From NCBI GenBank assembly GCA_963700065.1, contig CAVOWJ010000005.1, positions 620,953 to 684,952 of the forward strand: a stretch of DNA of 64,000 bases, read 5' to 3'. The notes under the pieces were generated by a model. It saw nothing but the letters and a program-made list of their open reading frames with translations. It ran no database searches and was not told the origin of the DNA. Positions 4,438 through 56,667 of this stretch are shown here, piece after piece. Origin of the DNA: an uncultured Acidobacteriota bacterium. GTDB lineage: Bacteria > Acidobacteriota > Vicinamibacteria > Vicinamibacterales > JAKQTR01. A program made the translations under genes and the position numbers. The stretch's first letter is position 1, and the number at the start of each line of letters is the position of its first letter.

Positions 4438-5187
4438 CCGTCTGAGCGCCTGCAGCGTGAAGTTCTCGTCCTTCATCGGCACGTTGTACTCGAGCTTGTC
4501 GAAGGTCAGGATCGTGCGGCTGTTGCGCTTGAGGTCGGCCATCTCGAGCACCCGCGCGGTCCAGATTCCCTGCACGTTGTCGATCTTCGAGTACTTCAGC
4601 CGCCGGACCACGACGTCCTTGACGTAGTTCTCGATGCGCTGGAACGCGTAGTTGTCCTTGCGCACCCACACGATGGACGACGTGTACTGGGAGGACTTCC
4701 CTTTCCGCGGGCGCGACTCGACCTTCCAGCACGCGGCCCCGTCGACGTTCTCCTCGGCGAGCATCGAGTAGTCGTACTGCCCGGTGTCGCGCTCCTCGAG
4801 ATCCTCAAAGCTGAAGTCGGTGCCGAAGAAGCGCGTGGAGCGGTCCTGCAGCGCGATGCGGCGCTCGCGCTGGATCGCCGGCGTCCACATCCACTGGTCG
4901 GACGCGCGGTCGGGATAGTTGACTACCAGCAGCGCCACGCCCTTCACCTCGGCCGGCTGAACGAACGTCAGCACGGACTTGCTCCGCCCGTGCGATCCTG
5001 TGCGGTCGTACACCCAGCGCTTATCGGAGATCTTCCCCTTCGAGTCGACGACCTGCAGAAGCCCCTCGTAGTGCTGCGACGTCGCCTCCGTGCGGCGCTG
5101 CGCTTCCTCCATCACCTGGCGCGCGTCCTGGGCGGCGGCGGGGCCGGCGGCCAGCACGAGCGCCAGAGCCGCCCTGATCAGGGGCAT
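4429..5187 (-). CDS. LolA-like outer-membrane lipoprotein-sorting family protein
   Basis: Start moved to ATG 5187, giving signal peptide MPLIRAALALVLAAGPAAAQDA. FFGTDFSFEDLEERD and the overall pattern match the LolA-like/DUF1329-type family commonly next to MacB-like permeases. Confidence 0.75.
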   Translation of the reverse strand: MPLIRAALALVLAAGPAAAQDARQVMEEAQRRTEATSQHYEGLLQVVDSKGKISDKRWVYDRTGSHGRSKSVLTFVQPAEVKGVALLVVNYPDRASDQWMWTPAIQRERRIALQDRSTRFFGTDFSFEDLEERDTGQYDYSMLAEENVDGAACWKVESRPRKGKSSQYTSSIVWVRKDNYAFQRIENYVKDVVVRRLKYSKIDNVQGIWTARVLEMADLKRNSRTILTFDKLEYNVPMKDENFTLQALRRGQ

Positions 5188-5246
5188 GGGACATGGGGCA
5201 GGGGGCAACAAGACAGGGGCATGGGGCAAGGGACAAGGGGCGGGGA
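5181..5246. repeat. G-rich heptamer array (GGGGCAT/GGGGCAA/GGGACAA units); left arm flanking the four-helix-bundle gene
   Basis: ggggcat gggacat ggggcag ggggcaa caagaca ggggcat ggggcaa gggacaa ggggcgg. This is the reverse-complement unit family of the 5693-5820 array. Confidence 0.85.
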
Positions 5247-5282
5247 AGCAAGAACGTTCACGACGCATACAACTGCTCCTAG

Positions 5283-5687
5283 TCACTGGGCACTCTGAGC
5301 ACGAGACTCGGAGTCGGCCGCTGCACGATTCCCCAGCGCCGACCGCAATCCGTGAAGAACCCTTCCCACGTCAGCTGCTGCATCAAGCAGCCTGACGGCG
5401 TCTTCCACCTGACCCATCCCAAGACGCCTCGCCAGTTCGATCTGAGTCTCCAACTCGGCCTGGGAGCCCATTGCGATGGCCACGAAGCTCGCGTATGCCG
5501 CTCTCGACCGGCGGTTGTGACCCTCCGCAACGTTCGACGGAATCGACACGGCCGACTTCCGAATGTGCGCCGCAAGTCCGAACATCTCCGACTTCGGGAA
5601 GCTCTCTGTGAATCTGTAACACCCCTCGGCCAGCTGCATGGCGAGCTTCCATGCGTCGAGATCGCGGTAGCACCGGATTGGCGTCAT
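5283..5687 (-). CDS. Four-helix-bundle protein (23S rRNA intervening-sequence protein family)
   Basis: 134 aa. YRDLDAWKLAMQLAEGCYRFTESFPKSEMFGLAAHIRKSAVSIPSNVAEGHNRRS is the characteristic signature of this family. Confidence 0.85.
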   Translation of the reverse strand: MTPIRCYRDLDAWKLAMQLAEGCYRFTESFPKSEMFGLAAHIRKSAVSIPSNVAEGHNRRSRAAYASFVAIAMGSQAELETQIELARRLGMGQVEDAVRLLDAAADVGRVLHGLRSALGNRAAADSESRAQSAQ

Positions 5688-5692
5688 TCATT

Positions 5693-5820
5693 CCCCCATG
5701 CCCCATGCCCCATGCCCCATGCCCCTTGTCCCTTGCCCCTAGCCCCCTTGTCCCCTTGCCCCTTGTCCCCTTGCCCCTTGCCCCTTGTCCCTTGCCCCTT
5801 GTCCCTTGCCCCTTGCCCCT
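5693..5820. repeat. C-rich heptamer array of about 18 units (CCCCATG/CCCCTTG/TCCCTTG); right arm flanking the four-helix-bundle gene
   Basis: 128 nt with strict 7-nt period from just after the gene start (5687) to the permease stop codon (5819-5821). It is G4-type (G3-4 N3)n on the transcribed minus strand. Confidence 0.9.
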
Positions 5821-8372
5821 ACTCGTACTCGAGCGCCTCCACAAGCGACCCCCGCACCGCCGACTCCGCCGGCCAGAGCGCGGCCACGAACGCCGCCCCG
5901 AGGATCAGCGGCACGAGCAGGGCGGCAATCGACCAGGGGAACTGGTACGGCAGCGCCATGCCGGTGATGTCGCGCTGGCTCAACTCGAGCACGTAGTGCA
6001 GCGTCACCGACCCGACGGCGAATCCCATCACCAGCCCGACCACTCCAATCGTGAGCGCCTCCATCCAGATCGTGTGGCGGATCTGGTTGCGCAGGCCGCC
6101 GACGGCCTGCAGCACGCCCAGTTCGCGCCGGCGATCGATGATCGACACGGTGAGCGTGTTCACGATCCCCAGGATCGCCACGAGCACGGCAATCGCGATC
6201 TGCGCATAGGCCAGGCCCAGCCACTGCTCGGTCAGGGCCGAGATCCAGGACCGCACTTCCTTGTTCGTCAGCACGAACAGGCGCTGCGTGCCGGCGAACC
6301 GCTCGATGATCCGCTGCCGGACGTCCATCGGCGGCACGCCTTCCTTCACGTAGATCCGGAAGACGTTCACGGTGTCATCGCCCCACCACCGGACGTAGCT
6401 CGCCCGGTCCATGAGGATCGAGCCCGACTGATCCGACCAGTCGACGACCAGGCCGACGATGGGGACCTTGTGCACGCCGGTCGGCGTGGCCAGATCCATC
6501 ACGTCGCCGTAGTGAAGGTCCTGCAGCCGCGCGAAGTTGTCCGACAGGATTACGCCCTTGCCCTGTGCCGCCATCTCGTACATCTCGGGCGGGCCTTCCA
6601 CCGGCGGCCGCCTGGCCCGGTCTCCCATCGACTTCGCCTCGACCGCCACGATCATGACGGGCGTGCCCTTGTACATCGTCCGGTGGCTGCGCACGCGCTG
6701 AAGCTCCTCGACCCCCTCGATCCGCGCCAGTTCGTCGCCGATCGCGGGCGGGAACCTGAAGTTCCGCTCGGTCAGGCTTTGCGACGCGGTCACGAACAGG
6801 TCCGGGTTCAGCGCCGTCGTGGTCCACTCCATGATCGAGTCGTAGCTGGCCTTTGCGATGCCGCCCAGCGTGACGACGAGCGCGAGCGACAGCATGAGCG
6901 CCGTCACCGTGGCCGAGGTGCGGCGCGGCGCCTGGATGAGACTGTCGGCCGCCAGCGCCCCTTCGACCGGCCGGAGCCATCGCAGGGCCGGGCGCATGGC
7001 CCGCGTGAGCCACAGCGCCCCCGTGGGGCTGAGGAGCAGGAGCGCCACAACCGCCATCGCGAACCCGGCGTAGAAGAGCGCCATCGATCGGGCCGCGAAC
7101 ACGAGCAGTGCGATCGAAAACGCGCCCAGGAGGATGGCCGCCAGACGGCGCATCCGGTTCTCGCCAGCCGACAGCACCTGGTACCGGCCTTTTTGCAGCG
7201 CCTGGATCGGATCGACCCGCGACGCGTTGCGCGCGGGGATGAACCCCGCGAGCACGCTGGTCACGACGCCCATCAGCAGGCCGAACAGCATCAGGCGGGG
7301 CTCGGTCGCGATTTCGGTCGTCCGCTCGGCGATGCCGTAGACCCCGGCAATCAACCCCGAGATGTAGAGCGCCAGGCCGCGAGACAGCAGCACGCCGAAC
7401 CCGAGGCCCAGCGTGGACCCCACCAGCCCCGACAGGCCGCTCTCGACGAGGAAGAGCGTCCGGATCTGACGGCGCGAGGCGCCCAGCGCGCGCAGGATCC
7501 CGATCTCGCGCCGCCGCTGCGCCACGGCGATCGAGAACGAGTTGTAGATGATGAACATCCCGATGAACAGCGCGAACGCGCTGTTGATGTTCGCCGTGAA
7601 GGAGTACACGCGCAGCACCGAGTCGATCTGCTGGCCGCGCGACGAGGGCGGCTCCACCTCGAAGCCGGGCCCCAGGAGGCCCTCGAATGGCCGCGCGGCC
7701 GTCGGCCACCGGCACACCCTCGTTCAGGGCCAGGTCGATCCGGTCGAACGTCCGGCCCCGCCCGAACACCATCTGGGCCGCGTAGATGTCCATCACTGCG
7801 AGGTTGCCGCCGAACGCCTGCGTCAGGCCGCCCGACTTCATGATCCCGCGCACCGTGAACTGCTTCTCGCCGTCCATGGTGCGCATCGGCACCTTCGTGC
7901 CAATCGCGATGCCGTTCCGCTCGGCGAACTCGCGCGTCACGATCAGCGAGTCGGGCTGCGCCAGGAACACCAGCGGGTCGTCGATGACCGCCTCGTCTCC
8001 GGTCTCGAGGTCGTAGTCGCGCAGCGAGCGGTCGCCGGTCATGTCCACGGCCAGGATCAGCAGGTTGCCCTCGCCCGCCAGGTTCGTGTCGACCGGCGCC
8101 TCGATGACCGGCACGGCGACCTTCACCTGCGGCATCGCCTGCACGCGCTCGAGCACGTCCTCCGGGAATCCCCCCTCGCCGGCGGTGATCTGCAGCTCCG
8201 CCTTCCCCGCGATGCGGTCGATCGTCTTGTAGAAGGCGAACAGCACCGACTGGTTGGCCGTGTGCATGCCGACGAAGACGGCTACGCCGAGCACGATCCC
8301 GACCGTCGTCAGGATCGTGCGCAGGCGGTGCCGGCGCACGTAGGGCCAGGTGATGAGGCGCAGCAGCATCAT
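5819..8372 (-). pseudogene. MacB/FtsX-type ABC transporter permease (about 850 aa, two FtsX domains) with its frame broken by one extra base near 7686
   Basis: The N-terminal part MMLLRLITWPYVRRHRLRTILT...RIDLALNEGV is in track ORF 6375..8711. The remainder, LLGPGFEVEPPSSRGQQIDSVLRVYSF...EALEYE, is in track ORF 5819..7717. Length is 2554 nt = 3n+1. Removing one T of gccatTcgag gives ...GRAAIEGLLGPGFEV. Confidence 0.8.
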
Positions 8373-9043
8373 CGCCGTTCGTCTCCGACGATCCGGCCGT
8401 CGCGCAGGGTGATGGTGCGGGCGCAGCTCGCGGCCACGTGGCGGTCGTGCGTCACGATGAGGACCGTCGCCTTCAGGCGATCGTGGAGGTCCCGGATGAG
8501 CGCGAGGATCTCCTCGCCGGTGGCCGAGTCGAGGTTGCCCGTCGGCTCGTCGGCGAGCAGGATCGGCGGGTAGATGGCCAGCGCGCGCGCGATCGCCACG
8601 CGCTGGCGCTCGCCGCCCGACAGCTCGTCCGGCAGGTGCTCGATGCGCTTGCCGAGCTGGACCAGGTCGAGCAGCTCGCGGGCACGGTCGCCGGCCTTCC
8701 TGCGGGCCCACCCGCGCAGGTGCAGCGGCAGCGCGACGTTCTCGAGGCAGCTCAGCGTGGGCAGCAGGTTGAAGAACTGGAAGATGAACCCGACCTTGTC
8801 CCGCCGCACCCTCGTCAGCGCATCGTCCCCGAGGCCGTCCAGGCGCTGGCCGTCCACCCCGATCCAGCCAGAGGTCGGGTGATCGAGCGCGCCGATCAGA
8901 TTGAGCAGGGTCGACTTGCCGGAGCCGGATGCGCCGACAATCGAGACCATCTCGCCGCGTTCGACGGAGAGGCTGACGTGGTCGAGGGCGGTGACGGTGC
9001 GCTTGCCGTCGAAGGTCTTGGTGACGTCAGACAGAGTGATCAT
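8369..9043 (-). CDS. ABC transporter ATP-binding protein (LolD/MacB-type)
   Basis: Start set at MITLSDVTKTF. Walker A GASGSGKST, signature LSGGERQRVAIARAL, Walker B ILLADEPTGNLD. Its stop overlaps the permease start (ATGA at 8369-8372). Confidence 0.9.
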   Translation of the reverse strand: MITLSDVTKTFDGKRTVTALDHVSLSVERGEMVSIVGASGSGKSTLLNLIGALDHPTSGWIGVDGQRLDGLGDDALTRVRRDKVGFIFQFFNLLPTLSCLENVALPLHLRGWARRKAGDRARELLDLVQLGKRIEHLPDELSGGERQRVAIARALAIYPPILLADEPTGNLDSATGEEILALIRDLHDRLKATVLIVTHDRHVAASCARTITLRDGRIVGDERR

Positions 9044-11598: not shown

Positions 11599-12555
11599 AT
11601 GTCCGCAGACACGCCACGCGCCGAGAAGGTCGCGCGCCCGGCCGTTCCGGAACTCGACGCCATCCTGGGCGACGCGATCCGCGTCCTCGACGACGGGTTC
11701 GTGCGCGTCGTCGATTACATGGGCGACGACTCGGCGATCGTGCAGGCCGCGCGCACGTCGTACGGCAAGGGCACCAAGCGCCGGCACGAGGACCGCGGCC
11801 TCATCCGCTACCTGATGCGGCACGCCCACACGACCCCGTTCGAGATGTGCGAGATCAAGCTGCACGTGCGCGTGCCGATGGACGTGTGGCGGCAGTGGAT
11901 CCGCCATCGCACCGCGAGCGTGAACGAGTACTCCACCCGCTATTCCGAAGCGATTGACGCGGCGCAGCGGACCTCTCCCGGGGCGTGGCGGCTGCAGTCC
12001 ACAGGCAACCGCCAGGGCAGCAGCGGGCTGCTGCCGCCGGACGAGGGCAAGCGCCTCTCCGACGAGGAAGCCGCGCTGCAGCGACAGGTGCGGGACGTGT
12101 ACGAGGCGCGGCTGGCGGCCGGCGTCGCCCGCGAGCAGGCTCGCAAGGAGCTGCCGCTGTCGACCTATACCGAGGCCTACTGGAAGATCGACCTCCAGAA
12201 CCTGCTGCACTTCCTCGAACTGCGCATGGACGAGCACGCGCAGCTGGAGATCCGCGAGTACGCGAACGTCATCGGCGAACAGATCGTGGCGAAGTGGGTG
12301 CCGATGACCTGGGAAGCGTTTCTCGACTACCGGCGAGGCGCGACGCGGTTGTCGCGCATCGAGAGCACCATTCTGGAGGCGCTGGCCGCCGGCGACCGCG
12401 ACCGCGCGCTCGCGCTCGCGGACGAAGGCGGCTTCCTGAGCCGCGGCGAGGACGGGCGGCCCAGGCCGAACCTCGAAGGTCGAGAAGTCGAAGAGAAACT
12501 GGCGCGCGTCGGCCTCGAAGCGCCCTGGGCGGACGTCCACGAACCCGGGGTCTGA
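11599..12555 (+). CDS. thyX: FAD-dependent thymidylate synthase ThyX
   Basis: ThyX motif RHRTASVNEYSTRYS. Start moved to ATG 11599 (MSADTPRAEK...). Confidence 0.9.
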   Translation: MSADTPRAEKVARPAVPELDAILGDAIRVLDDGFVRVVDYMGDDSAIVQAARTSYGKGTKRRHEDRGLIRYLMRHAHTTPFEMCEIKLHVRVPMDVWRQWIRHRTASVNEYSTRYSEAIDAAQRTSPGAWRLQSTGNRQGSSGLLPPDEGKRLSDEEAALQRQVRDVYEARLAAGVAREQARKELPLSTYTEAYWKIDLQNLLHFLELRMDEHAQLEIREYANVIGEQIVAKWVPMTWEAFLDYRRGATRLSRIESTILEALAAGDRDRALALADEGGFLSRGEDGRPRPNLEGREVEEKLARVGLEAPWADVHEPGV

Positions 12556-12565
12556 AGACCCCGGG
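12544..12565. terminator. Hairpin cccggggtc-tgaa-gaccccggg; copy 1 of a 3-copy element
   Basis: 9-bp perfect stem with the thyX stop codon in the loop. It lies between convergent thyX and the small glutaredoxin-like gene. Confidence 0.5.
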
Positions 12566-12667
12566 CTCCATCACCACGGTGGAGGTCGGGCCTTCAGGCT
12601 CGACGCGGTCGCGGGCCGCGCGCGGCGGTGCCTCATGACGGCTTCACGAGCCGTCCTGCTACACCCC

Positions 12668-12880: not shown

Positions 12881-12896
12881 CAGTCGCTCCTTGTTC

Positions 12897-12918
12897 CCCC
12901 GGGTCTGAAGACCCGGGG
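12897..12918. terminator. Hairpin ccccgggtc-tgaa-gacccgggg; copy 2
   Basis: 9-bp perfect stem downstream of the thioesterase gene and just upstream of the RBS of the glutaredoxin-like gene. Confidence 0.45.
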
Positions 12919-12972
12919 CTCCACGACTCCCGCTGCACGCTTCAACGCCAGGTGCAGAGACCCCGGGCGCCA

Positions 12973-13494
12973 TCAGTCAAATGGGACTCCTTCGAAATCC
13001 CGAATGCGCTGCTTGATCGCGTCCGGCAGCGGCACGGTCCTGCCGGCGGCATAATCATACGCCGCCTGCACGCTTGTCGCCGTCGCGACCAGCCGTCCCA
13101 CGGGGTTCCGTATCTCGTAGACCATCGTGAAGCTGGCGCGCCCAAGCCGCGTGACGGCGATCGCGACATCGAGCGCCTCACCCGTCGTCGCCGGGGCGCG
13201 GAAGTCGATTTCGACCCGCGCGATGATGTAGCTCACGTCGCCGGCGAGCCGCCCGATGCCGGCGGCCTTCCAGTACGCGAACCGCGCCTGCTCGAGATAG
13301 GTCAGGTAGACGGCGTTGTTCACGTGGCCCATCGCGTCGCAGTCGCGGAAGCGCACCTCGATCGGGCAATGGACGCGATACCCGGGACTCGGGACTCGGG
13401 ACTCGGGGCTCGGCCCCTCGGCAGGCTCGCCGCGTTCCAAGTTGGCCGAAGGGCGATCATCGTCGAGCGGCGGGATTCCGGATTGGGATGTCAC
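12973..13494 (-). CDS. 4HBT/YbgC-type acyl-CoA thioesterase
   Basis: VRFRDCDAMGHVNNAVYLTYLEQARFAYW is hot-dog thioesterase-like. The N-terminal 40 aa are partly encoded by a heptamer array, so the true start is uncertain. Confidence 0.7.
   Translation of the reverse strand: MTSQSGIPPLDDDRPSANLERGEPAEGPSPESRVPSPGYRVHCPIEVRFRDCDAMGHVNNAVYLTYLEQARFAYWKAAGIGRLAGDVSYIIARVEIDFRAPATTGEALDVAIAVTRLGRASFTMVYEIRNPVGRLVATATSVQAAYDYAAGRTVPLPDAIKQRIRDFEGVPFD
13384..13411. repeat. Heptamer array: GGGACTC x3 plus GGGGCTC
   Basis: gggactc gggactc gggactc ggggctc, inside the 5' end of the thioesterase ORF. A related patch, cgggattccggattggg, lies at 13471-13487. Confidence 0.85.
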
Positions 13495-14698: not shown

Positions 14699-14705
14699 CT
14701 GTCCG

Positions 14706-14792
14706 TAGTCAGTAGTAAGTAGCCAGTAGCCAGTATTCAGTAGAAAGGCCTGTGAGCTGAACGGTGTTCAGCCCTACTGGCTACTGGCTACT
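14706..14792. repeat. Hairpin element with arms of CAGTAGN heptamers (18-bp pairing) and a 30-nt loop
   Basis: 14718-14735 agtagccagtagccagta is the reverse complement of 14775-14792. The loop has an inner 7-bp hairpin, gctgaac-ggt-gttcagc (14756-14772). It lies between the def stop and the MFS start. Confidence 0.8.
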
Positions 14793-15348
14793 CTTCGTGC
14801 TCCCGCTTCGCGTGATACCTCGCGAACTCCTCGATGAAGCTGAGGCTCTCCATCGACTTCATCCGGTCGAGGAACAGCACGCCGTCGAGATGGTCGGTCT
14901 CGTGCTGGATGACGCGGGCCATGAACCCGCTCGCCTGCAGCTCGATCGGCCGGCCGGCGCGGTCGTAGCCCTTCACCGAGATGTCGCGGTAGCGTGGCAC
15001 GAGGCCGCGCAGATCGGGAATGCTCAGGCAGCCCTCCCAGTCCTCTTCAATCTGCCGGCTGGCCGGCTTGATCTCGGGATTGACGAGCGCCAGGACTTCG
15101 GGCCTCCTCGCGTCGTTCTCGCTCTCCTCTTCGTCGTCCTGGTCGCGGATGACCTGCGCCACGAAGAGGCGCAGCTCCTCGTGCACCTGCGGCGCCGCCA
15201 GGCCCACGCCGTTGTACTCGAGCATGGTCTGCGCCATGTCGTCGATCAGCCGCTGGATCGGCGCCGCGGTGATGTCGGCCGCCGGCACGGGCCGCACCTT
15301 CTTCCGCAGGACCGGATGCCCCATCCGCGAGACTTTCAGGATAGACAT
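14788..15348 (-). CDS. def: Peptide deformylase
   Basis: The three PDF motifs are present: GVGLAAPQV, EGCLSIP and HETDHLDG. Confidence 0.95.
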   Translation of the reverse strand: MSILKVSRMGHPVLRKKVRPVPAADITAAPIQRLIDDMAQTMLEYNGVGLAAPQVHEELRLFVAQVIRDQDDEEESENDARRPEVLALVNPEIKPASRQIEEDWEGCLSIPDLRGLVPRYRDISVKGYDRAGRPIELQASGFMARVIQHETDHLDGVLFLDRMKSMESLSFIEEFARYHAKREHEE

Positions 15349-15381
15349 AAACCTCCATTATAGCCTGCTGTGACGAGGGCC

Positions 15382-15449
15382 TGCCTCGACGAAGCCGACG
15401 GAGGCGGGCAGCAGGCCGGACGGAGGCGTAGTCGGGGGCTAGGGGCTAG
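15382..15449. repeat. Conserved ~55-nt core plus GGGGCTA heptamers; left part of an array split by an IS
   Basis: tgcctcgacgaagccgacggaggc...ccggacggaggcgtagtcgggggctaggggctag. It is about 58/72 identical by hand alignment to 22280-22351. Confidence 0.8.
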
Positions 15450-16846
15450 CAGCCCGTGGCGGAAGCGGCGATTTCGCGCCAGTTCATAGTTGGCCACGAT
15501 AAGACATCGTGACGATGAGCGTTCACATCGACCGGATTCTTCGGGCGCCTTGGAGGCCGCTGGTGGCTCCACGTGGTCGTCAGGGACGCCCAGGCGGCGG
15601 CGAGCGGCGCCACGAGGCGGCCCTGGAGGCCGCGGGGCGTCCCCACGCCGAGCAGCGTCCGCATGACGAGCCCGAGGTTGAAGCCGCCGGCATGCACGAG
15701 GAGCCGTTTCAGAATGTTGCTGTGCCCGCGCAGATGCGTGCGTCGCATGCCGCCCGTTTCGTAGGCGTGCGCAAACGTCCGTTCCAGCCGTTCGCCGCGC
15801 AGCCGGCGCAAGCGCTGCCCGCGGCTCCCCTTGATGCGGCGGCGGTTGGCGTACACCGCGCGCTGCGCCTGGGCCTTCCCGCGCCAGTTCCGCCGGCCGC
15901 GGGCTGGCTCCGAGATGTACGTCCGCACGCCGAGGGCGTCCAAGTCCGTCACCACCTCGTTACTGTGGTACCCCTTGTCGGTGACGACGTCGAGGTCGCT
16001 CGCCGCGTCCAGGCCGACCGTCGCTTCGAGCTGTTCCGTGGCCATCACCAGCGTCGCCTGAATCGTCTGCGTGTCGCCGGCATCCGCCCGTTGGACCGTC
16101 ACCGCGACGATCGCCCCGCATTCCAGATCGACGGCGTGCTCCGCTTTGTGCGCCAGATGCGTGCGTCCGTCTTTCATCTTCGTGATCGATGCGTCTGGGT
16201 CCTGCGGATGCTGCCAGTCGTCGTTCGAGCCCTTCTTCTTCCGCTTCTTGTCGATCTTCGCCAAGTCTTCTCGGGTCGGCGTCGCAATCCCCGACGCCTG
16301 AGCCAGCTTCGTCAAGAACTCCTGGTACGTGTCCCCCGTGTCGCGGCGCACGATGCTGCGCAACGCCGCGTTGGCCTCCAGCGTCGTGCCGTCGATTCCC
16401 AGAGGCCCGCCGCGCATCAGTCCCCGCTCGACCAGCCGCTGCTGGATCCACGTGAACACGGCCCGGTGCGTCTCCACATCAATCAGCCGGCGCGTCCGCG
16501 AGATCGTCGAGTGGTCGGCCACGTCCTCATCCAGCCCCACACGCAGGAACCGGCGGATGGCGAGCGAGTCGGCTGCCCGCCATGCGATCCCGCGCTCCGA
16601 ATCCAAGCCTTCGAAGTAGCCGATCAACAACAACCGGAAGTAGATCCCCGGCGCCAAGCTCGGCCGTCCCATCGTCGGCGCGTAGAACGCGCGGCACGTC
16701 TCCTCCACGAACGCATCGAAGCCCGAGTCGTCCAGGAGGACATTCAGCCGCTGGTAGAACGGGTGCGCCGCCGTGCTCGGCAACTCGGCCACCGGGATCC
16801 ACAGGCTCTCTTGTCGGCGCCGTTTGCGTCGCGTGCCCATCGCCAT
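15446..16846 (-). CDS. IS5/IS1182-family DDE transposase
   Basis: 466 aa. N-terminal InsH-like block HPFYQRLNVLLDDSGFDAFVEETCRAFYAPTMGRPSLAPGIYFRLLLIGYFEGLDSERG, and a C-terminal DDE region. Confidence 0.85.
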   Translation of the reverse strand: MAMGTRRKRRRQESLWIPVAELPSTAAHPFYQRLNVLLDDSGFDAFVEETCRAFYAPTMGRPSLAPGIYFRLLLIGYFEGLDSERGIAWRAADSLAIRRFLRVGLDEDVADHSTISRTRRLIDVETHRAVFTWIQQRLVERGLMRGGPLGIDGTTLEANAALRSIVRRDTGDTYQEFLTKLAQASGIATPTREDLAKIDKKRKKKGSNDDWQHPQDPDASITKMKDGRTHLAHKAEHAVDLECGAIVAVTVQRADAGDTQTIQATLVMATEQLEATVGLDAASDLDVVTDKGYHSNEVVTDLDALGVRTYISEPARGRRNWRGKAQAQRAVYANRRRIKGSRGQRLRRLRGERLERTFAHAYETGGMRRTHLRGHSNILKRLLVHAGGFNLGLVMRTLLGVGTPRGLQGRLVAPLAAAWASLTTTWSHQRPPRRPKNPVDVNAHRHDVLSWPTMNWREIAASATGC

Positions 16847-17012: not shown

Positions 17013-17609
17013 TTGCTAAGGCGAATGACGGAAGAGCAGGCCGGGCGGGAATTTCGTTTTTGTCCGCGGTGCGGAGGGCCTTTCACCGCGCGGATTATCA
17101 AGGAAGGCGAGCCTTTCCGGCTGGTCTGCGACGCCTGCGGGTTCGTCTTCTATCTCGACCCGAAGGTGGCGGTCGGCACGATTATTCGCACGGCGGATGA
17201 CGAATTCGTGCTGTGCCGCCGGGCCATCGAGCCCGGTTACGGGCGGTGGGTCTTCCCCGGCGGCTACGTGGACCGGGGCGAGAAGCTCGAAGAGGCGGCG
17301 GTCCGCGAGGCCCGGGAGGAGTGCGGCCTCGACGTCGAGCTCGAGAGGCTCGTCAGCCTCCACTCCTATCGCGGCAAAACGCCCATCATCATCGTCTGGG
17401 CGGCGCGCGCGGTGGGGGGCGAACTGAAGGCGGCCGACGAGGAAAGTCTGGAGGTCCGGGCGTTCAGGGCCGAGACGATCCCCTGGGGCGATCTGGCCTT
17501 CGAGAGTACGGGCGAGGCGCTCAGGGCGTACTTCGGGAACCGGGATTCGGGATTGGGGATTCGGGATTCGGGGTTGATACTCACAGGGTCGATTGGAGAA
17601 CACCTATGA
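17013..17609 (+). CDS. NUDIX hydrolase with an N-terminal zinc ribbon
   Basis: CPRCGG...CDACG zinc ribbon. NUDIX box GGYVDRGEKLEEAAVREAREECGL. The C-terminal 23 aa are encoded through a heptamer array. Confidence 0.8.
   Translation: MLRRMTEEQAGREFRFCPRCGGPFTARIIKEGEPFRLVCDACGFVFYLDPKVAVGTIIRTADDEFVLCRRAIEPGYGRWVFPGGYVDRGEKLEEAAVREAREECGLDVELERLVSLHSYRGKTPIIIVWAARAVGGELKAADEESLEVRAFRAETIPWGDLAFESTGEALRAYFGNRDSGLGIRDSGLILTGSIGEHL
17542..17576. repeat. Heptamer array (GGGATTC/GGGATTG x5)
   Basis: gggattc gggattg gggattc gggattc ggggttg, inside the 3' end of the NUDIX ORF. Confidence 0.85.
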
Positions 17610-18073: not shown

Positions 18074-18078
18074 GCAGA

Positions 18079-18100
18079 CCCCGGGTCTGAAGACCCGGGG
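18079..18100. terminator. Hairpin ccccgggtc-tgaa-gacccgggg; copy 3
   Basis: 9-bp perfect stem between the convergent lipoprotein gene and thiI, followed by gctccatca as in copy 1. Confidence 0.5.
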
Positions 18101-18136
18101 CTCCATCAGGAGCAGCTGGAGGCCGGGCCCTGGAGG

Positions 18137-19318: not shown

Positions 19319-19325
19319 GAAGGTC

Positions 19326-19360
19326 GGGACTCGGGATTCGGGACTCGGGATTCGGGCCCG
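19326..19360. repeat. Heptamer array of alternating GGGACTC/GGGATTC
   Basis: gggactc gggattc gggactc gggattc gggcccg, between the hpnE stop and the thiI start. Confidence 0.85.
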
Positions 19361-19390: not shown

Positions 19391-20755
19391 CTAGCGGCTT
19401 CCGGCGGACACCGCCTCCGCGGCCCGGTGGCCGCCGAGCGCGGCGCTTTCAATCGTACCCGGCAATCCGGTGTCGGTCCAATCGCCTCCCAGGAAGAACC
19501 CGGCAAGCGCCGTCGCGCCAGGCGCAGGCCGCGCCGGCTGGCCCGGCGCCAGCGAGAACGTGGCGCGGCGCTCGCGAACCACCGACCCGTGGCGCACGAC
19601 GGCCGCGCGAGCGGCCGGCAGCGCGTCCCGCAACTCGCGAAGCGCGAGGCCGACGACAGCCTCGTTGCCCAGTTCCGCCACGCCGGCTGCGCCGCTCGAG
19701 ACAAGCGAGAGGTGCCTGGATGCGGTGCCCGTGATGGCGCCGCGGTCGAAGACCCACTGCATCGTGCGGCCGGGCAGTCCCACGAACGGCGTGGTCAGGA
19801 CCCGGCGGTCGAGCCAGAGGTTCACGGTGACGATGGGATACGAGGCCATGCGCGCCGCGCCGGCGACGAGCGGCCCGAGCGCGGCCGGCACATCGTCGAA
19901 GAGCGCGGCCAGCGCGAACCACGGCACGCACGCAATCACGGTCTGTGCGCGCACGGCCCGGCCGCCGCGGGCGCGCACGCCGGCTGCGCGGCCGCCCTCG
20001 ACGGTGACCCTGGCGAGGGCGTTGGTCCAGATCGTGCCGCCGCGCTGCTCGATGAAGGTGCGGGCGGGCGCGGCGTACATCGCCTCGAGCGAGACGGCCG
20101 GGAATGCGATCGACGCGGCCTGTGGATCCGGCCCGAACATCTCGGCGAGCACGCGCACGAAGGTGGGCGCCGCGGCTTCGTGCGGGGGCTGATTCAGGGC
20201 CGCCAGCGCCAGCGGATCCCAGAGCATCTCGCGCAGCCGCGGCGTCTGGCCGTTGCGCACGAGCCAGTTCTCGACGGTCTCCTCGGGCGAACACGCCATC
20301 CGTTCCGATCGCCCGCGCAGCCGTTTCTGCTCCGTTCTGACGGGTGCGCCCAGCCGCAGCACGGACAGGCGGTCCTTCCAGCCGAGCGCATCCCACTCGA
20401 TCACGCCGCCGAGCAGGTGCCACGGGGCCGGCAGCGGCGGGCACGAGAGCACCGACGCCCGGCCCGCGCTGTCGATCGACGGCACCGCCAGTGATGGCTG
20501 CACGCGCACATGCTGCATCGCGCCGATGCGCCGCAGGAACGCGAGCGTCTCGCGGTAGCAGCCCATGAGGATGTGCTGCCCGTTGTCGACGGCGTCGCCC
20601 GTCGCGGCATCCGTGAACGAGCTGGCACGCCCGCCCAGGGAGGGCCGGGCCTCGACCACGACGACGGCGGCGCCCCGTTCGGCGAGCGAGACGGCCGCCG
20701 CGAGGCCGGCCACCCCGCCGCCGATGACAACGACGTCGGCCGTGGTTGCGCTCAT
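19391..20755 (-). CDS. hpnE: FAD-dependent hydroxysqualene dehydroxylase (HpnE-type amine oxidase/desaturase)
   Basis: N-terminal dinucleotide fold VVVIGGGVAGLAAAVSLAERGAAVVVVEARPSLGGRA. Position directly after hpnC and hpnD. Confidence 0.8.
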   Translation of the reverse strand: MSATTADVVVIGGGVAGLAAAVSLAERGAAVVVVEARPSLGGRASSFTDAATGDAVDNGQHILMGCYRETLAFLRRIGAMQHVRVQPSLAVPSIDSAGRASVLSCPPLPAPWHLLGGVIEWDALGWKDRLSVLRLGAPVRTEQKRLRGRSERMACSPEETVENWLVRNGQTPRLREMLWDPLALAALNQPPHEAAAPTFVRVLAEMFGPDPQAASIAFPAVSLEAMYAAPARTFIEQRGGTIWTNALARVTVEGGRAAGVRARGGRAVRAQTVIACVPWFALAALFDDVPAALGPLVAGAARMASYPIVTVNLWLDRRVLTTPFVGLPGRTMQWVFDRGAITGTASRHLSLVSSGAAGVAELGNEAVVGLALRELRDALPAARAAVVRHGSVVRERRATFSLAPGQPARPAPGATALAGFFLGGDWTDTGLPGTIESAALGGHRAAEAVSAGSR

Positions 20756-20756
20756 G

Positions 20757-21596
20757 TCAGAGGCCGATCATGGTGGAAAGCCAGACCGAGGCGGCGATGC
20801 TCACCTGCCGCCAGCGCGGCACGCGCACCGGGGCGCCGAAGACGTCGAACCCGCCCGTCTCGATCCGCTGCAGCAGCTGGAGGTAGATCGCGCCCATGAT
20901 GCGGGCGGCCACGAAACGCCTCGCGTCCTCGGGCGGCAGCTCGCCCGCGGCCTTCGCGTAGTGATCGCGCGCGCGGCGCGATTCGAACTCGAGCAGCGCC
21001 CGCACGCCGCTGCTCGAGGTGCCCGCGCGGAGGTCGTCCTCGGTTACGCCGAATCGCGCAAGGTCTTCGGTGGGCAGATAGAGGCGGCCAGCCGAAAGGT
21101 CGCGGCCGAGATCGCGCAGGATGTTGGTCAGCTGCAGCGCGATGCCGAGGTCGATGGCGTACTGGCGGCTGCTCGCGTTGGTGTACCCGAAGATCTCGAT
21201 GCACACGATGCCGACGGCCGACGCGACGCGCAGGCAATACTCGCGAAGGTCGTCGAACGAGCGGAACCGCGGCCGGTCGAGATCGATCTCGACGCCGTCG
21301 ATGACGTCCTCGAACGGCCGCCTCGGCAGCTTGAAGGCGGCGATGTGCGGCAGCAGCGCCGCGCCCTGGCTCGTGCGCGGCTGCCCGCCCTCGAAGCACG
21401 CCGCCAGTTCGTCGCGCCATCCCGCCAGCGCATCGGCGGCCGCGCGCCTCGCTTCCTCGGTCGCCAGCTGCCCCGCCCGCTCGTCGACATCGTCGTCGAC
21501 GGCGCGGAAGAAGTCCCAGACGGCGATAATGGCGCGCCGCTTGTGCTCGGGGAGCACCAGGAAGGAGTAGTAGAAGCTCGTGTCGCGGCGGGCCAT
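20757..21596 (-). CDS. hpnD: Presqualene diphosphate synthase (HpnD; squalene/phytoene synthase family)
   Basis: Start at MARRDTSFYYSF. Asp-rich motifs FFRAVDDDVDE and ILRDLGRDLSAGRLYLP. Confidence 0.8.
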   Translation of the reverse strand: MARRDTSFYYSFLVLPEHKRRAIIAVWDFFRAVDDDVDERAGQLATEEARRAAADALAGWRDELAACFEGGQPRTSQGAALLPHIAAFKLPRRPFEDVIDGVEIDLDRPRFRSFDDLREYCLRVASAVGIVCIEIFGYTNASSRQYAIDLGIALQLTNILRDLGRDLSAGRLYLPTEDLARFGVTEDDLRAGTSSSGVRALLEFESRRARDHYAKAAGELPPEDARRFVAARIMGAIYLQLLQRIETGGFDVFGAPVRVPRWRQVSIAASVWLSTMIGL

Positions 21597-21604
21597 GGCG
21601 ATGA

Positions 21605-22597
21605 TCAGGCCGCCCGGGGCCGGCTCCAGGAGACCGCGCTCCAGACGAGCGCCGGGACGTCGGCAGCGCCAAGCGTTGGCCGCGACGTGAAGACATCGAA
21701 GCCCGAACGCTCGAGGCGTTCGAGCACGCGCACGCCGCCGAGCCACGTCAGCCGCAGCTCGTACCGCAGGCGGCCCTCGAGGCCGTCGGCCACGGCGCGG
21801 CCGTCGTCGAACAGCGCACGGGTGCGCTCGGCCATCTCGAACATCACGGCACGCCAGGCCGGCGACATCGAGCGCGCGTCGAGATCGCCTTCGGACGCGC
21901 CGACGCGTTCGCGATCCTCGCGCGGCACGTAGAGACGGCCCTTCCGCCAGTCGCGCTCGAGATCCTGCCAGAAGTTGGTGAGCTGGAGCGCCGTGCAGAC
22001 CGCGTCGGAGGCTGCGTCGAGTCGGGCGTCGGCACGCCCGGCCACGCGAAGCACCAGGCGGCCCACCGGGTTCGCCGAGCGCCGGCAGTAGTCCATGACA
22101 TCGGCCCACGTCTCGTAGCGCGTCGTGACAACATCCTGCCGGAAGGCCGACAGCAGATCCTCGAACAGGCCGACCGGCAGTGAAAGCGTACCGATGGTGC
22201 GGGAGAGGGCGAGGAAGATGGCGTCGGCTTCAGGGACAAGGGGCAAGGGGCCTGGGGCAAGGGGCCTGGGGCATGGGCTTGCCTCGACGAAGCCGACGGA
22301 GGCTTCTGCCGAGCCGGACGGAGGCGCAGTCGGGGGCTCGGGGCTCGGGCGAACCGCCGGTCTGCTGCGCTCGCACGCCGACAGGCGAGCGCCCCAGTCG
22401 TCGAGCAGCGCGAGGCGATCGGCGGCCGGCACGTCGCCTTCGTCGGCGAAGTCGTCGGCGGTGCGGGCGAACGCGTAGATGGCCGCGATGTGCGGGCGCA
22501 TCGCGGCCGGAAGCAGGAACGAGGCGACGGGAAAGTTCTCGTAGTGCCGGCGGGCGATGCGCTCGCAGACCCCGTAGGCCTCGCCGGCGGTCACCAC
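21605..22597 (-). CDS. hpnC: Hydroxysqualene synthase (HpnC; squalene/phytoene synthase family) carrying a repeat-encoded in-frame insertion
   Basis: ERIARRHYENFPVAS, FARTADDFADE and NFWQDLERDWRKGRLYVP. A GTG start overlaps the upstream stop (GTGGTGA at 22591-22597). About 45 aa (RPAVRPSPEPP...PLPLVPE) are encoded by the heptamer/core element at 22233-22350. Confidence 0.75.
   Translation of the reverse strand: MVTAGEAYGVCERIARRHYENFPVASFLLPAAMRPHIAAIYAFARTADDFADEGDVPAADRLALLDDWGARLSACERSRPAVRPSPEPPTAPPSGSAEASVGFVEASPCPRPLAPGPLPLVPEADAIFLALSRTIGTLSLPVGLFEDLLSAFRQDVVTTRYETWADVMDYCRRSANPVGRLVLRVAGRADARLDAASDAVCTALQLTNFWQDLERDWRKGRLYVPREDRERVGASEGDLDARSMSPAWRAVMFEMAERTRALFDDGRAVADGLEGRLRYELRLTWLGGVRVLERLERSGFDVFTSRPTLGAADVPALVWSAVSWSRPRAA
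22233..22350. repeat. Heptamer arrays flanking the conserved core, located inside the hpnC coding sequence
   Basis: gggacaa ggggcaa ggggcct ggggcaa ggggcct ggggcat, then core tgcctcgacgaagccgacggaggc...ccggacggaggcgcagtc, then gggggctc ggggctc. The core is homologous to the non-coding copy at 15382-15449. Confidence 0.85.
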
Positions 22598-23124
22598 TCG
22601 GCCTCGGCCACCCCGGCGCGGCTGTTCACCACGCGAGCGAGCACGAACAGCAGGTCCGACAGGCGGTTCATGTAGGCGAGGAACTCGACCTCGAGCACGG
22701 CCAGCGCCACCATGCGCCGCTCGGCGCGCCGGCAGACCGTGCGCGCGAGATGAAGCGCGGCCGCCGCGGAGGTGCCGCCCGGCAGGATGAAGCGGCGCAG
22801 CGGCTTCAGCTCCTCCTCGCACGTGTCGATCCAGCCCTCGAGTCTGGCGACGTCGGCAGGGCCGAGCGCGACCTTCGTCACGCGGTCGGCGATCCGCTCG
22901 GCCGGATCCGCAAGGCGCGAGCCGAGCGCGAACAGGTCGCGTTGGATCTGCCCCAGCATCTCCTCGATGTCCTTGTCGACGCCGCTCGCACGCGCCACGC
23001 CGACGGCCGCGTTCGCCTCGTCGACCTCGCCGTAGGCGTCCACGCGCGGGTCCGACTTGGCGATCCGCGTGCCGTCGAAGAGCGTCGTGGCGCCGCCGTC
23101 CCCGGTTCGTGTGTAGATCTTCAT
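22591..23124 (-). CDS. PduO-type ATP:cob(I)alamin adenosyltransferase
   Basis: Start MKIYTRTGDGGATTLFDG. FILPGG and LHLARTVCRRAER are typical of the family. Confidence 0.85.
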   Translation of the reverse strand: MKIYTRTGDGGATTLFDGTRIAKSDPRVDAYGEVDEANAAVGVARASGVDKDIEEMLGQIQRDLFALGSRLADPAERIADRVTKVALGPADVARLEGWIDTCEEELKPLRRFILPGGTSAAAALHLARTVCRRAERRMVALAVLEVEFLAYMNRLSDLLFVLARVVNSRAGVAEAEW

Positions 23125-36087: not shown

Positions 36088-36190
36088 CAGCAGCCAGTAG
36101 TCAGTAGAAAGACCCTGGCTCGGTGTCCCGCGGACCTGCCGTTCGACAGGCACTCCTACTGGCTACTGACTACTGTCTACTGACGACTAC
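36088..36190. repeat. Hairpin element with arms of CAGTAGN / NCTACTG heptamers and a 48-nt loop
   Basis: Left cagcagccagtagtcagtag and right ctactggctactgactactgtctactgacgactac; 13 bp pair in the best register. It lies between the lpdA stop and the E2 start. Confidence 0.75.
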
Positions 36191-54482: not shown

Positions 54483-54580
54483 GGACTAGGCGCTAGGGGC
54501 TAGTCAGTCTCGCAGTTGAACTGCCACCCACGCGGCGACAGCCGCGTCGGACGAGCGCCTAGCGCCCAGCCCCTAGCCCC
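54483..54580. repeat. Hairpin element with CTAG-type heptamer arms; its left arm continues at 53027-53036 before the IS
   Basis: Left ggactaggcgctaggggctagtcag and right cgcctagcgcccagcccctagcccc. The loop shares ccacgcggcgacagccgcgtcgga with the loop of the 1549-1653 element. Confidence 0.75.
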
Positions 54581-56632: not shown

Positions 56633-56667
56633 CCCCTTGCCCCCTGTCCCTTGCCCCTTGCCCCTGT
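56633..56667. repeat. C-rich heptamer array (CCCCTTG family)
   Basis: ccccttg ccccctg tcccttg ccccttg cccctgt, between the divergent S9 and SNF2 genes. Confidence 0.85.

What the first reader, a model, noticed from the sequence alone, without database searches (positions are those of the whole stretch)
22233..22350. Repeat element embedded in frame inside the hpnC (hydroxysqualene synthase) coding sequence
About 118 nt of heptamer arrays plus a ~55-nt core lie within hpnC. They encode roughly 45 extra Pro/Ala/Ser-rich residues (RPAVRPSPEPPTAPPSGSAEASVGFVEASPCPRPLAPGPLPLVPE). The insert sits between the conserved ...LDDWGARLSACE and AIFLALSRTIGTLSLP... segments.

The same core occurs in non-coding DNA at 15382-15449: 24 identical nt, then a 10-nt variable patch, then 13+11 identical nt. 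So the similarity is at DNA level, not protein level. The ORF stays open.

This looks like a tolerated in-frame insertion of a genomic repeat into an enzyme loop, or a disruption of squalene synthesis.
Basis: partly seen in the sequence, partly recalled or inferred. Interest (0 to 1): 0.65.

Follow-up and report, generated by a model that had tools for sequence, protein, structure and literature searches.

The report
Repeat element inserted in-frame in hpnC
A small dispersed DNA repeat, sitting inside runs of 7-base tandem repeats, has landed in frame in a floppy loop of the squalene-pathway enzyme HpnC of a soil acidobacterium; the enzyme looks intact, and the same loop has caught different repeat elements many times in related bacteria.

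Summary
hpnC lies on the minus strand (21605-22594). It contains a 60-nt repeat core (22275-22334) between two heptamer arrays (22232-22277 and 22333-22349). A second core copy lies upstream of def (15377-15436).

The core belongs to a real dispersed family. About 17 further loci were found in soil metagenomes, nearly always nested in C-rich heptamer arrays.

The repeat DNA encodes HpnC residues 82-121. These fall in a 46-residue stretch that the AlphaFold model leaves unstructured and low-confidence, between two confident helices. Solved HpnC (4HD1) has only about 10 residues there.

The gene is not broken. It scores above the HpnC cut-off, keeps the invariant residues, sits in an hpnC-D-E operon, and shows dN/dS of 0.2-0.33.

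New findings:
- A heptamer array in this loop is ancestral to the whole Vicinamibacterales-like clade.
- At least four or five different cores entered it independently, in both orientations and always in frame.
- Genes 99% identical outside the loop carry completely different loops, so turnover is recent.

The core is not a classic REP hairpin, and no target duplication is visible. How it moves is unknown.

Verdict: a tolerated in-frame repeat insertion, and a new variant of a known kind (like Rickettsia RPEs or intragenic REPs).

The parts
21605..22594 (-). hpnC coding sequence (329 aa plus stop). The start is GTG at 22594, as in database protein P0001; an alternative GTG lies at 22597. It overlaps the stop of the upstream adenosyltransferase gene.
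   Evidence: ORF. TIGR03464 HpnC 327 bits against a cut-off of 250. Identical to P0001. The model matches 4HD1 HpnC with TM 0.89 normalised to the target.
22333..22349 (-). Short heptamer array on the 5' (coding-sense) side of the core: CCGAGCC/CCCGAGC, about 2.4 units. It encodes about residues 82-88 (RPSPEPP).
   Evidence: TRF, sequence, residue mapping. Orthologous to the CCCGAGT/CCCGAAT arrays of relatives.
22275..22334 (-). Core A, a 57-60-nt dispersed repeat. Coding-sense reading: CCCGACT-N-CGCCTCCGTCCGGC, then a 10-nt variable centre (TCGGCAGAAG), then CCTCCGTCGGCTTCGTCGAGGCAAGCC. It encodes residues 87-107 (PPTAPPSGSAEASVGFVEASP).
   Evidence: Exact and near-exact match to 15377-15436. 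nhmmer E = 3.5e-16. Family alignment. Residue mapping.
22232..22277 (-). Heptamer array on the 3' (coding-sense) side of the core: GCCCCWK, 6.6 units. It is G-rich on the + strand, which is the template strand, and contains a canonical G-quadruplex motif at 22233-22257. It encodes residues 106-121 (SPCPRPLAPGPLPLVP).
   Evidence: TRF, repeat families D6 and I2, G-quadruplex motif scan and residue mapping. L021 has exactly 3 units (21 nt) fewer.
15377..15436 (-). Second copy of core A. It is non-coding and lies 29-88 nt upstream of the def start codon, just upstream of a TATAAT box. Its centre is CTGCTGCCCG. It is followed (+ strand coordinates) by GGGGCTA x2.1 at 15435-15449.
   Evidence: Orthologous copies in L033, L042 and L051. 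More distant relatives L023 and L024 have only a heptamer array at this site.
14788..15348 (-). def (peptide deformylase), the gene downstream of the second core copy.
   Evidence: PF01327, E = 4e-53.
20757..21596 (-). hpnD (presqualene diphosphate synthase), immediately downstream of hpnC.
   Evidence: TIGR03465 is the best match at 272.8 bits (cut-off 278.6). Same gene order in L022, L023, L056-L060.
19391..20755 (-). hpnE (hydroxysqualene dehydroxylase).
   Evidence: TIGR03467 382.7 bits against a cut-off of 283.
22591..23124 (-). PduO-type cob(I)yrinic acid a,c-diamide adenosyltransferase, upstream of hpnC and overlapping its start.
   Evidence: TIGR00636, E = 9.5e-56. Conserved neighbour in relatives.

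Best explanation
A small non-coding dispersed repeat (core A, 57-60 nt) lives in or next to heptanucleotide tandem-repeat arrays of this Vicinamibacterales-like genome. It has become inserted into a heptamer array that was already lodged in a loop of HpnC.

Shown:
- The loop joins two helices (residues 57-76 and 123-137 of the model). Insertion-free HpnC proteins have only about 10 residues there.
- The inserted DNA has no stop codon in the reading frame used, and its total length is a multiple of three (the canonical core is itself about 57 nt). It is read through as a 40-residue Pro/Ala/Ser-rich segment that the model leaves unstructured.
- Array length differs between alleles in steps of three heptamers (21 nt).
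- The core differs in presence or absence among nearly identical genes.

Inferred:
- The rest of the enzyme stays functional.
- The segment is a neutral or nearly neutral passenger rather than a functional domain.
- The heptamer array acts as a landing pad or recombination substrate. This would explain why the same loop has captured at least four or five different cores in different lineages, in both orientations.
- The way the core spreads leaves no visible target duplication. It could be transposition by an unidentified enzyme, or recombination between arrays.
For: Real family:
- Two window copies with 0 expected by chance.
- About 17 further distinct loci in metagenomes. The arm that was not part of the search pattern is highly conserved and the length is constant.
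- 14 of 16 distinct loci have C-rich heptamers on at least one side (read by eye).

Loop location:
- AlphaFold model: mean pLDDT 87.4. Residues 77-122 have no secondary structure and pLDDT 41-57. The flanking helices score above 90.
- Solved HpnC 4HD1 aligns on both sides, with about 10 residues where the window has 53. Fold match.

Gene intact:
- TIGR03464 score above the cut-off.
- Invariant residues, including D47 D48 D51 and D211 D215, are kept.
- hpnC-hpnD-hpnE operon.
- dN/dS of 0.33 against L021, which shares the insert, and about 0.2 against four others.
- No internal promoter-like or terminator-like site.

Array first, core later:
- Outgroup HpnC proteins have an 11-residue loop. Most clade members have a 24-residue loop that is a translated CCCGART array.
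- At the def locus, the array is present in L023 and L024 without a core. The core is present only in the window, L051 and L033.

Recurrent independent capture:
- Core A is in the window and L021, and separately in L022. L022's closest relative, L059, lacks it.
- Core B is forward in L057 and reversed (twice) in L024. A longer core C is reversed in L056. Further types are seen at protein level.

Recent turnover:
- Window hpnC is 99.2% identical to L060 over the 600 nt beyond the loop.
- L060 has a different array and no core. L058 has arrays but no core. L021 has the same core with 21 nt less array.
Against: - No enzyme activity or expression data exist, so function of the decorated enzyme is inferred from conservation only.
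- dN/dS against the one relative that shares the insert rests on few substitutions (about 27 synonymous and 27 non-synonymous).
- The mode of spread is not established. Folding energies of core A are no better than shuffles (z from -1.2 to +1.0), so a REP-like hairpin is not supported.
- The terminal inverted complementarity is only about 6 bp.
- Target duplications cannot be seen, and a 7-nt duplication inside an array would be invisible.
- No transposase was linked to the element.
- The source genome was not found among the species-representative genomes, so copy number and the intragenic fraction genome-wide are unknown.
- Gene trees and loop types disagree among the closest relatives. Loss, gain and recombination therefore cannot be separated.
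Confidence: 0.8

Rival explanations
1. The insertion inactivates hpnC. The gene is a young pseudogene and squalene or hopanoid synthesis is lost or rerouted.
For: An insertion of about 120 nt in the middle of an enzyme gene. The G-rich template strand has a G-quadruplex motif that could impede transcription.
Against: - The ORF is open and the HpnC score is above the cut-off.
- All invariant residues are kept.
- dN/dS is 0.33 between the two insert-bearing genes and about 0.2 against others.
- hpnD and hpnE are intact.
- The loop tolerates 11-68 residues across 120 homologues.
- The rest of the model is confident.
Confidence: 0.03
2. The inserted peptide is a selected protein feature, such as a flexible Pro-rich linker, a membrane or partner-binding segment, or a regulatory loop. 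It is not a passenger.
For: - The loop is expanded in almost all members of the clade.
- In the window and L022, core A is read in the same frame (PPSG...VGF/YV).
- The core differs at only 1 of 60 nt between the window and L021, against 8.6% at fourfold-degenerate sites (P = 0.03).
Against: - Loop sequences are unrelated between lineages.
- The same DNA element is read in opposite orientations, giving unrelated peptides: AFARRPGGRLRRGKP against KPAGRPFGEGG.
- Genes 99% identical elsewhere have entirely different loops.
- The same core occurs in non-coding DNA.
- The model predicts disorder.
Confidence: 0.06
3. The intragenic heptamer arrays make hpnC a contingency (phase-variable) gene. Gain or loss of one or two 7-nt units shifts the frame and switches squalene synthesis off and on.
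For: - A 7-nt unit is not a multiple of 3.
- The arrays are long (6.6 units) and clearly unstable between close relatives.
- The same principle is known for other simple-sequence repeats.
Against: - No frameshifted allele was seen. All differences between intact alleles keep the frame (for example 21 nt).
- The one candidate truncated protein (P0103) is simply a contig that starts inside the loop.
- The units are imperfect (alternating GGGGCAA and GGGGCCT), which lowers slippage.
- The protein database holds called ORFs only, so off-frame alleles would be under-reported. The test is therefore weak.
Confidence: 0.07
4. The segment is an assembly or sequencing artefact: a repeat collapsed or chimerically joined into hpnC.
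For: Repeats break assemblies. L061 and L025 start or end inside such repeats.
Against: - An independent metagenome contig from another sample (L021) carries the same core at the same place with the same centre.
- The frame is preserved.
- Related insertions occur in many independent assemblies.
Confidence: 0.01

Closest known systems
Rickettsia palindromic elements (RPEs; Ogata et al. 2000, from my own knowledge; mentioned in PMC3733652)
   Same: A small dispersed repeat found both between genes and inside protein-coding genes. It is inserted in frame, read through as an extra peptide, and tolerated by the host protein.
   Different: From my own knowledge, RPEs are about 100-150 bp, AT-rich palindromes in alpha-proteobacteria. 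Core A is 57-60 nt, GC-rich, not significantly palindromic, nested in heptamer arrays, and found in Acidobacteriota. There is no sequence relationship.
REP elements (GTAG- or CGTC-tagged palindromic repeats), including REPs inside genes (PMC3733652)
   Same: Short intergenic dispersed repeats that are occasionally found within coding regions of known proteins. No target duplication. CGTC-type REPs also lack a known transposase.
   Different: REPs are 20-40 bp with 8-9 bp perfect stems and a terminal tag. Core A shows no significant hairpin and no terminal GTAG or CGTC. Instead it has two direct 11-12-nt half-repeats separated by a 10-nt centre of fixed length.
Small dispersed repeats (SDRs) of Nostoc and Anabaena nested in heptameric tandem repeats (Elhai et al. 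2008, Genome Res 18:1484). The paper is not held in the library; it is cited in PMC3116915, and its content is from my own knowledge.
   Same: Very small dispersed elements that sit inside tandem heptamer arrays and show presence/absence differences between related genomes. No known mobilising enzyme.
   Different: SDRs are 21-27 nt and cyanobacterial. Here the elements are 45-85 nt and acidobacterial. The recurrent in-frame capture in one enzyme loop is not something I know to have been described for SDRs.
G-rich heptanucleotide simple-sequence repeats of Xanthomonas and Nostoc (GGGNATC and GGGGAYT types; PMC4692102), and cyanobacterial STRR repeats
   Same: - Tandem 7-nt units with a G3-4 tract (GGGATTC, GGGACTC, GGGGCAA here).
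- Many arrays per genome, mostly intergenic and abutting gene ends.
- Strand bias, with the C-rich strand in the mRNA.
- Translating the array retrieves mainly Xanthomonas pseudo-ORFs.
   Different: Those repeats are reported as under-represented in coding regions. Here an array is fixed inside an enzyme gene across a whole clade and serves as the site of further insertions.
Enterobacterial RU/ERIC-type small mobile sequences found intragenically (PMC2759123)
   Same: MITE-like intergenic repeats that can lie inside ORFs and contribute peptide sequence.
   Different: These are longer (103-168 bp) inverted-repeat elements in a different phylum, with no tandem-repeat association.

Membership tests
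HpnC (TIGR03464; hydroxysqualene/squalene synthase HpnC) | Whole-protein score above the curated cut-off of the equivalog model. | tested here: met
   327.4 bits against a cut-off of 250.45, matched in two stretches that skip the insert (profile position 68 resumes at residue 125 of the 331-aa translation used).
HpnC (TIGR03464; hydroxysqualene/squalene synthase HpnC) | Class I isoprenoid synthase fold of the SQS/PSY family, with the two Asp-rich motifs. | tested here: met
   The model matches 4HD1 HpnC with TM 0.89 normalised to the target. D47 D48 D51 and D211 D215 are invariant in 76 homologues.
HpnC (TIGR03464; hydroxysqualene/squalene synthase HpnC) | Genomic context with hpnD and hpnE. 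| tested here: met
   hpnD at 20757-21596 (best match TIGR03465, 272.8 bits, just under its cut-off of 278.6). hpnE at 19391-20755 (382.7 bits).
HpnC (TIGR03464; hydroxysqualene/squalene synthase HpnC) | Catalytic activity (presqualene diphosphate to hydroxysqualene). | not testable with these tools
   Needs an enzyme assay.
REP (repetitive extragenic palindrome, GTAG/CGTC-tagged; PMC3733652) | 20-40-bp palindrome with a stable 8-9-bp stem. | tested here: not met
   Single-strand DNA folding z-scores for core A are -0.53, +0.83, -0.26, -1.18 and +1.01. For core B they are -1.0 and -2.1. The consensus fold has only scattered 2-4-bp stems.
REP (repetitive extragenic palindrome, GTAG/CGTC-tagged; PMC3733652) | Conserved GTAG or CGTC tetranucleotide at one end. 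| tested here: not met
   The ends are CCCGMC... and ...GGCARGCC. CGTC occurs only inside the two direct half-repeats.
REP (repetitive extragenic palindrome, GTAG/CGTC-tagged; PMC3733652) | Association with a RAYT (IS200/IS605-type) transposase gene. | not tested
   The source genome outside the window was not available. The window was not fully annotated for transposases.
MITE (miniature inverted-repeat transposable element) | Terminal inverted repeats. | tested here: inconclusive
   Only about 6 bp with a bulge (CC-CGAC ... GTCG-N-GG). The two ends co-vary between subfamilies (A: CGAC/GTCG; B and C: CGCC/GGCG).
MITE (miniature inverted-repeat transposable element) | Target-site duplication flanking the element. 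| tested here: inconclusive
   No duplication where a heptamer is visibly split: CCCG|core|AGT in L024, and CTA(C)|core|TGG in L055. Inside arrays, however, a 7-nt duplication would be invisible.
MITE (miniature inverted-repeat transposable element) | Presence/absence polymorphism at orthologous sites. | tested here: met
   hpnC: window and L021 carry the core, L058 and L060 do not; L022 carries it, L059 does not. def upstream: window, L051 and L033 carry it, L023 and L024 do not.
G-rich heptanucleotide SSR arrays (PMC4692102 type) | Tandem 7-nt units with a G3-4 tract, in many arrays, mostly intergenic. | tested here: met
   At least 17 period-7 arrays in 64 kb. Inspection places all except those in hpnC between genes or abutting start or stop codons, based on a crude gene map. 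Canonical G-quadruplex motifs occur at 16 sites.
G-rich heptanucleotide SSR arrays (PMC4692102 type) | G-quadruplex formation. | not testable with these tools
   Needs CD spectroscopy or similar.
Rfam RNA families | Match to any curated covariance model. | tested here: not met
   No match at gathering score in the whole window. Only a chance-level hit (E = 0.84) in 22150-22450.

The most novel reading that the evidence does not exclude
Heptanucleotide arrays in Vicinamibacterales may be dedicated landing pads for an undescribed class of very small mobile elements. These elements are 45-85 nt, share the termini CCCGMCTTCGCC...GGCTTCGNCGNGGCARGCC, carry two direct half-sites around a fixed-length variable centre, and show neither a stable hairpin nor a visible target duplication. 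They would move by a mechanism unlike REP/RAYT or DDE-type MITEs. The HpnC loop would then be a natural insertion trap that records these events and turns them into new peptide sequence at population time scales.
Probability: 0.2. Interest if true: 0.75.

Novelty: new variant of a known kind. Interest (0 to 1): 0.55.

Why it matters
This is a clear natural case of non-coding repeat DNA being converted into protein sequence without breaking the enzyme. It occurs in a phylum (Acidobacteriota, Vicinamibacterales-like) where I found no description of such repeats in the papers searched.

Three points go beyond a single tolerated insertion:
- A tandem heptamer array has been fixed inside an enzyme gene for the life of a clade.
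- That array has repeatedly captured different small elements, in both orientations.
- The loop differs completely between genes that are otherwise 99% identical. It is therefore a population-level marker and a place where insertions, deletions and recombination of such elements can be watched.

Practical consequence: repeat-encoded Pro-rich loops of this kind will confuse homology-based annotation, strain typing and assembly in abundant soil bacteria.

Tried and rejected
1. Scan of species-representative genomes with a 21-mer of the core: only single chance hits in unrelated taxa such as Microvirga, Nocardia and Streptomyces. The source genome and its close relatives are not in that collection, so no genome-wide census was possible.
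2. Exact look-up of the window's HpnC to reach its contig: not on record.
3. REP-like hairpin: the consensus fold is weak, and folding energies are no better than shuffles for core A. Rejected for core A; weak for core B.
4. The variable centre as an inverted loop, or as a guide complementary to flanking DNA: rejected.
   - The centres share a weak forward consensus, YCGNCRCCYT.
   - Reverse-complement similarity is lower than forward similarity.
   - Matches to the flanks are no better than with swapped centres.
5. Search for other proteins carrying the core peptide, using the six reading frames concatenated: no hit at E <= 10. Uninformative, because the segments are too short for a database of that size.
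6. Search with a translated heptamer array: only short, domain-less ORFs, mostly from Xanthomonas, which are over-called intergenic arrays. It says nothing about short arrays inside real proteins.
7. P0103 as a frameshifted hpnC allele: rejected. The contig simply starts inside the loop.
8. Rfam and promoter/terminator scans: nothing found.
9. Extra conservation of the core between the window and L021: 1 of 60 nt differs, against 8.6% at fourfold-degenerate sites (P = 0.03). Too weak to claim constraint.
10. Literature searches for heptamer or dispersed repeats in Acidobacteria or Vicinamibacteria: nothing relevant found.
Full report
**1. What is in the sequence**

The window is 69.7% G+C. On the minus strand it carries, in order:
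- a PduO-type adenosyltransferase gene (22591-23124);
- hpnC (21605-22594);
- hpnD (20757-21596);
- hpnE (19391-20755);
- thiI.

hpnC scores 327 bits against TIGR03464 (cut-off 250).

Read on the + strand, that segment consists of three parts:
- a G-rich heptamer array at 22232-22277 (GGGGCAA/GGGGCCT, 6.6 units);
- a 60-nt core at 22275-22334;
- a short array at 22333-22349 (GGGGCTC, 2.4 units).

The core recurs at 15377-15436. Outside a 10-nt centre the two copies agree at 24/24 and 25/26 positions. Neither block has a single match in 100 shuffles. The second copy is non-coding. It lies 29-88 nt upstream of the def start codon.

**2. The core is a member of a dispersed family**

A scan of metagenome contigs with one arm of the core (CCGACTNCGCCTCCGTCCGGC) returned 31 loci. 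About 20 of these, representing about 17 distinct places, also carry the other arm, which was not part of the query.

In hpnC coding sense the family reads:
- CCCGACT-N-CGCCTCCGTCCGGC;
- a 10-nt centre;
- CCTCCGTCGGCTTCGTCG(C/A)GGCA(G/A)GCC.

Its length is nearly constant. The centre is variable but keeps a weak consensus, YCGNCRCCYT. By my inspection, 14 of 16 distinct loci have C-rich heptamer arrays on one or both sides. All copies examined other than those in hpnC lie between genes or just upstream of starts.

Two further subfamilies share the termini but differ inside:
- Core B is about 45 nt and occurs in L057, L024 and L055.
- Core C is longer and occurs in L056.

Between subfamilies the two ends co-vary: CGAC...GTCG in A, and CGCC...GGCG in B and C.

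The family matches no Rfam model.

**3. Where the insert lies in the protein**

The repeat DNA encodes residues 82-121. The core itself encodes residues 87-107.

An AlphaFold model built on 76 homologues is confident overall (mean pLDDT 87.4). It shows no secondary structure and pLDDT of 41-57 for residues 77-122, between helices 57-76 and 123-137. The model matches the crystal structure of HpnC from Alicyclobacillus, 4HD1. By sequence, 4HD1 aligns on both sides of the insert and has about 10 residues where the window protein has 53.

One point is inferred from topology only. The first Asp-rich motif sits at the C-terminal end of helix 33-51, so the loop that follows the next helix should lie at the opposite end of the bundle from the diphosphate site. 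I could not measure distances.

**4. The gene is not broken**

- All residues that are invariant in 76 homologues are present, including both Asp-rich motifs.
- Outside the loop, dN/dS is 0.33 against L021, which shares the insert. It is 0.20-0.22 against four more distant genes.
- No promoter-like or terminator-like site lies in the gene.
- The G-rich strand of the arrays is the template strand. It contains a canonical G-quadruplex motif at 22233-22257. Whether this affects transcription is unknown.

**5. History of the loop**

Among the 120 best homologues, the named ones are Vicinamibacterales MAGs. Loop length ranges from 11 to 68 residues.
- The most distant forms (287 aa) have an 11-residue loop.
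- Most others have 24 residues reading (P/S)NPESR(I/V)PNP. The DNA shows this to be a CCCGAAT/CCCGAGT heptamer array, in which three units make 21 nt and 7 residues.

A heptamer array is therefore ancestral in this loop for the whole clade.

Different cores occur on top of that array:
- Core A is in the window and L021, and separately in L022. L022's nearest relative, L059, has only the array.
- Core B is in forward orientation in L057/P0031 (peptide AFARRPGGRLRRGKP). It is in reverse orientation, twice, in L024, and also in P0034 and P0107 (peptide KPAGRPFGEGG).
- Core C is reversed in L056 and seven relatives.
- At least two more types are seen at protein or DNA level: LGAALSxSKGR and DPVVLDPDFRRGNAR.

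All are in frame, as they must be to appear as intact ORFs.

**6. Recent turnover**

Window hpnC and L060 differ at about 5 of 600 positions 3' of the loop. Even so, L060 has a CCCCAAT array, no core and a different non-repeat leader. L058 is similarly close and has two arrays but no core. L021 has the same core with the same centre, and exactly three fewer heptamers.

Among these four genes, the tree built from the flanks groups the window with L060, not with L021. Gain, loss and exchange of the loop by recombination therefore cannot be told apart. Either way, the core is polymorphic among near-identical genes.

The def locus tells the same story. A heptamer array directly upstream of a conserved TATAAT box is present in all five relatives. 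The core is present only in the window, L051 and L033.

**7. How it works, and what remains open**

The best-supported reading is a tolerated, frame-preserving insertion of a small dispersed repeat into an array that already sat in a disordered loop. Tolerance of the loop and intactness of the gene are shown or strongly supported.

The way the core spreads is not shown.
- Against a REP-like mechanism: core A does not fold better than shuffled sequence, and it has no terminal tag.
- Against simple homologous copying between arrays: cores B and C occur in both orientations relative to arrays of the same polarity.
- Where a heptamer is visibly split by a core (L024, L055), no duplication is seen. 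A duplication of 7 nt would be hidden inside an array.
- The two direct half-repeats, with start-to-start spacing of 22 nt and a centre of fixed length, would suit a DNA-binding protein. This is my inference only.

**8. Comparison with what is known**

- In-frame intragenic copies of small repeats are known from Rickettsia RPEs (my own knowledge), from REPs (PMC3733652) and from enterobacterial RU elements (PMC2759123).
- G-rich heptamer arrays of nearly the same unit are known from Xanthomonas and Nostoc, where they are reported as depleted in coding regions (PMC4692102). A translated array retrieves mostly Xanthomonas pseudo-ORFs.
- Very small repeats nested in heptamer arrays were described in cyanobacteria by Elhai et al. 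2008. I could not read that paper; it is cited in PMC3116915.
- I found nothing on such repeats in Acidobacteria.

The combination found here appears to be a new variant of a known kind, not a new kind. It has three parts: an array fixed in an enzyme loop, repeated capture of several element types in both orientations, and allele-like turnover of the loop.

**9. Verdict**

The tolerated-insertion reading is supported and the disruption reading is not. The single-insertion picture should be replaced by an ancestral array plus a recent core. Interest is moderate (0.55).

Noticed in passing
window 5181-5820: A 134-aa ORF (5283-5687, minus strand) matches PF05635, the 23S rRNA-intervening-sequence / four-helix-bundle protein family (E = 1.3e-30). 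It is bracketed by inverted heptamer arrays: G-rich at 5181-5254, and CCCCWTG x18 at 5687-5820. This looks like a possible mobile cassette. The 5181-5245 array also appears to supply the ATG of the adjacent LolA-like gene.
   Followed up: partly
window 12543-12573, 12896-12926, 12945-12975, 18078-18108: A second, unrelated repeat family occurs four times. It is a clear hairpin (CCCCGGGTCTGAAGACCCGGGG followed by CTCCATCA) and is REP-like.
   Followed up: no
window 14701-14792, 36100-36190, 54478-54581: Pairs of inverted heptamer arrays (GYCAGTA...CTACTGG; CTAGGGG...CCCCTAG) enclose short hairpin cores such as GCTGAACGGTGTTCAGC. This is a different architecture from the same-polarity arrays around core A. 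L024 and L033 have similar CTACTGA structures upstream of def.
   Followed up: no
window 19324-19356, 54554-54581, 56633-56665, 17532-17572: Heptamer arrays directly abut start or stop codons. Example 1: five nt upstream of the thiI ATG, in the hpnE-thiI spacer. Example 2: immediately after a TAA stop. This suggests a link with translation starts or transcript ends, as proposed for heptamer repeats in other phyla (PMC4679880, PMC4692102).
   Followed up: no
window 15349-15376; L023 about 7068-7090; L024 about 15841-15863: def is preceded by a conserved TATAAT box only 8 nt before the ATG in all relatives. The heptamer array or core occupies the position where a -35 region would be. This would make def nearly leaderless and would put the repeats inside its promoter.
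   Followed up: partly
window about 22350-22395 (hpnC codons about 67-81): The roughly 45 nt of non-repeat sequence just upstream of the array is almost unalignable between the window and L060, L058 and L021, although these genes are 93-99% identical elsewhere. The loop leader seems to have been swapped together with the repeats, which suggests recombination.
   Followed up: partly
L055 941-1148 and 83-889: Three tandem copies of core A lie between a divergent TetR-like gene and an epimerase-like gene. As called, the TetR-like ORF begins with a heptamer-encoded stretch (PSLEPRILSPESQAPSPESRIPNPESRV), which may lie upstream of the true start.
   Followed up: no
L058 about 1130-1150; L022 about 8800-8815: A short junction, CCCGG(C/T)TC(T/C)CCT(CT)GCC, lies between the CCCGAGT-type and GCCCCAT-type arrays in hpnC of L058 and L022. 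It might be the decayed remnant of an older core. This is speculative.
   Followed up: no
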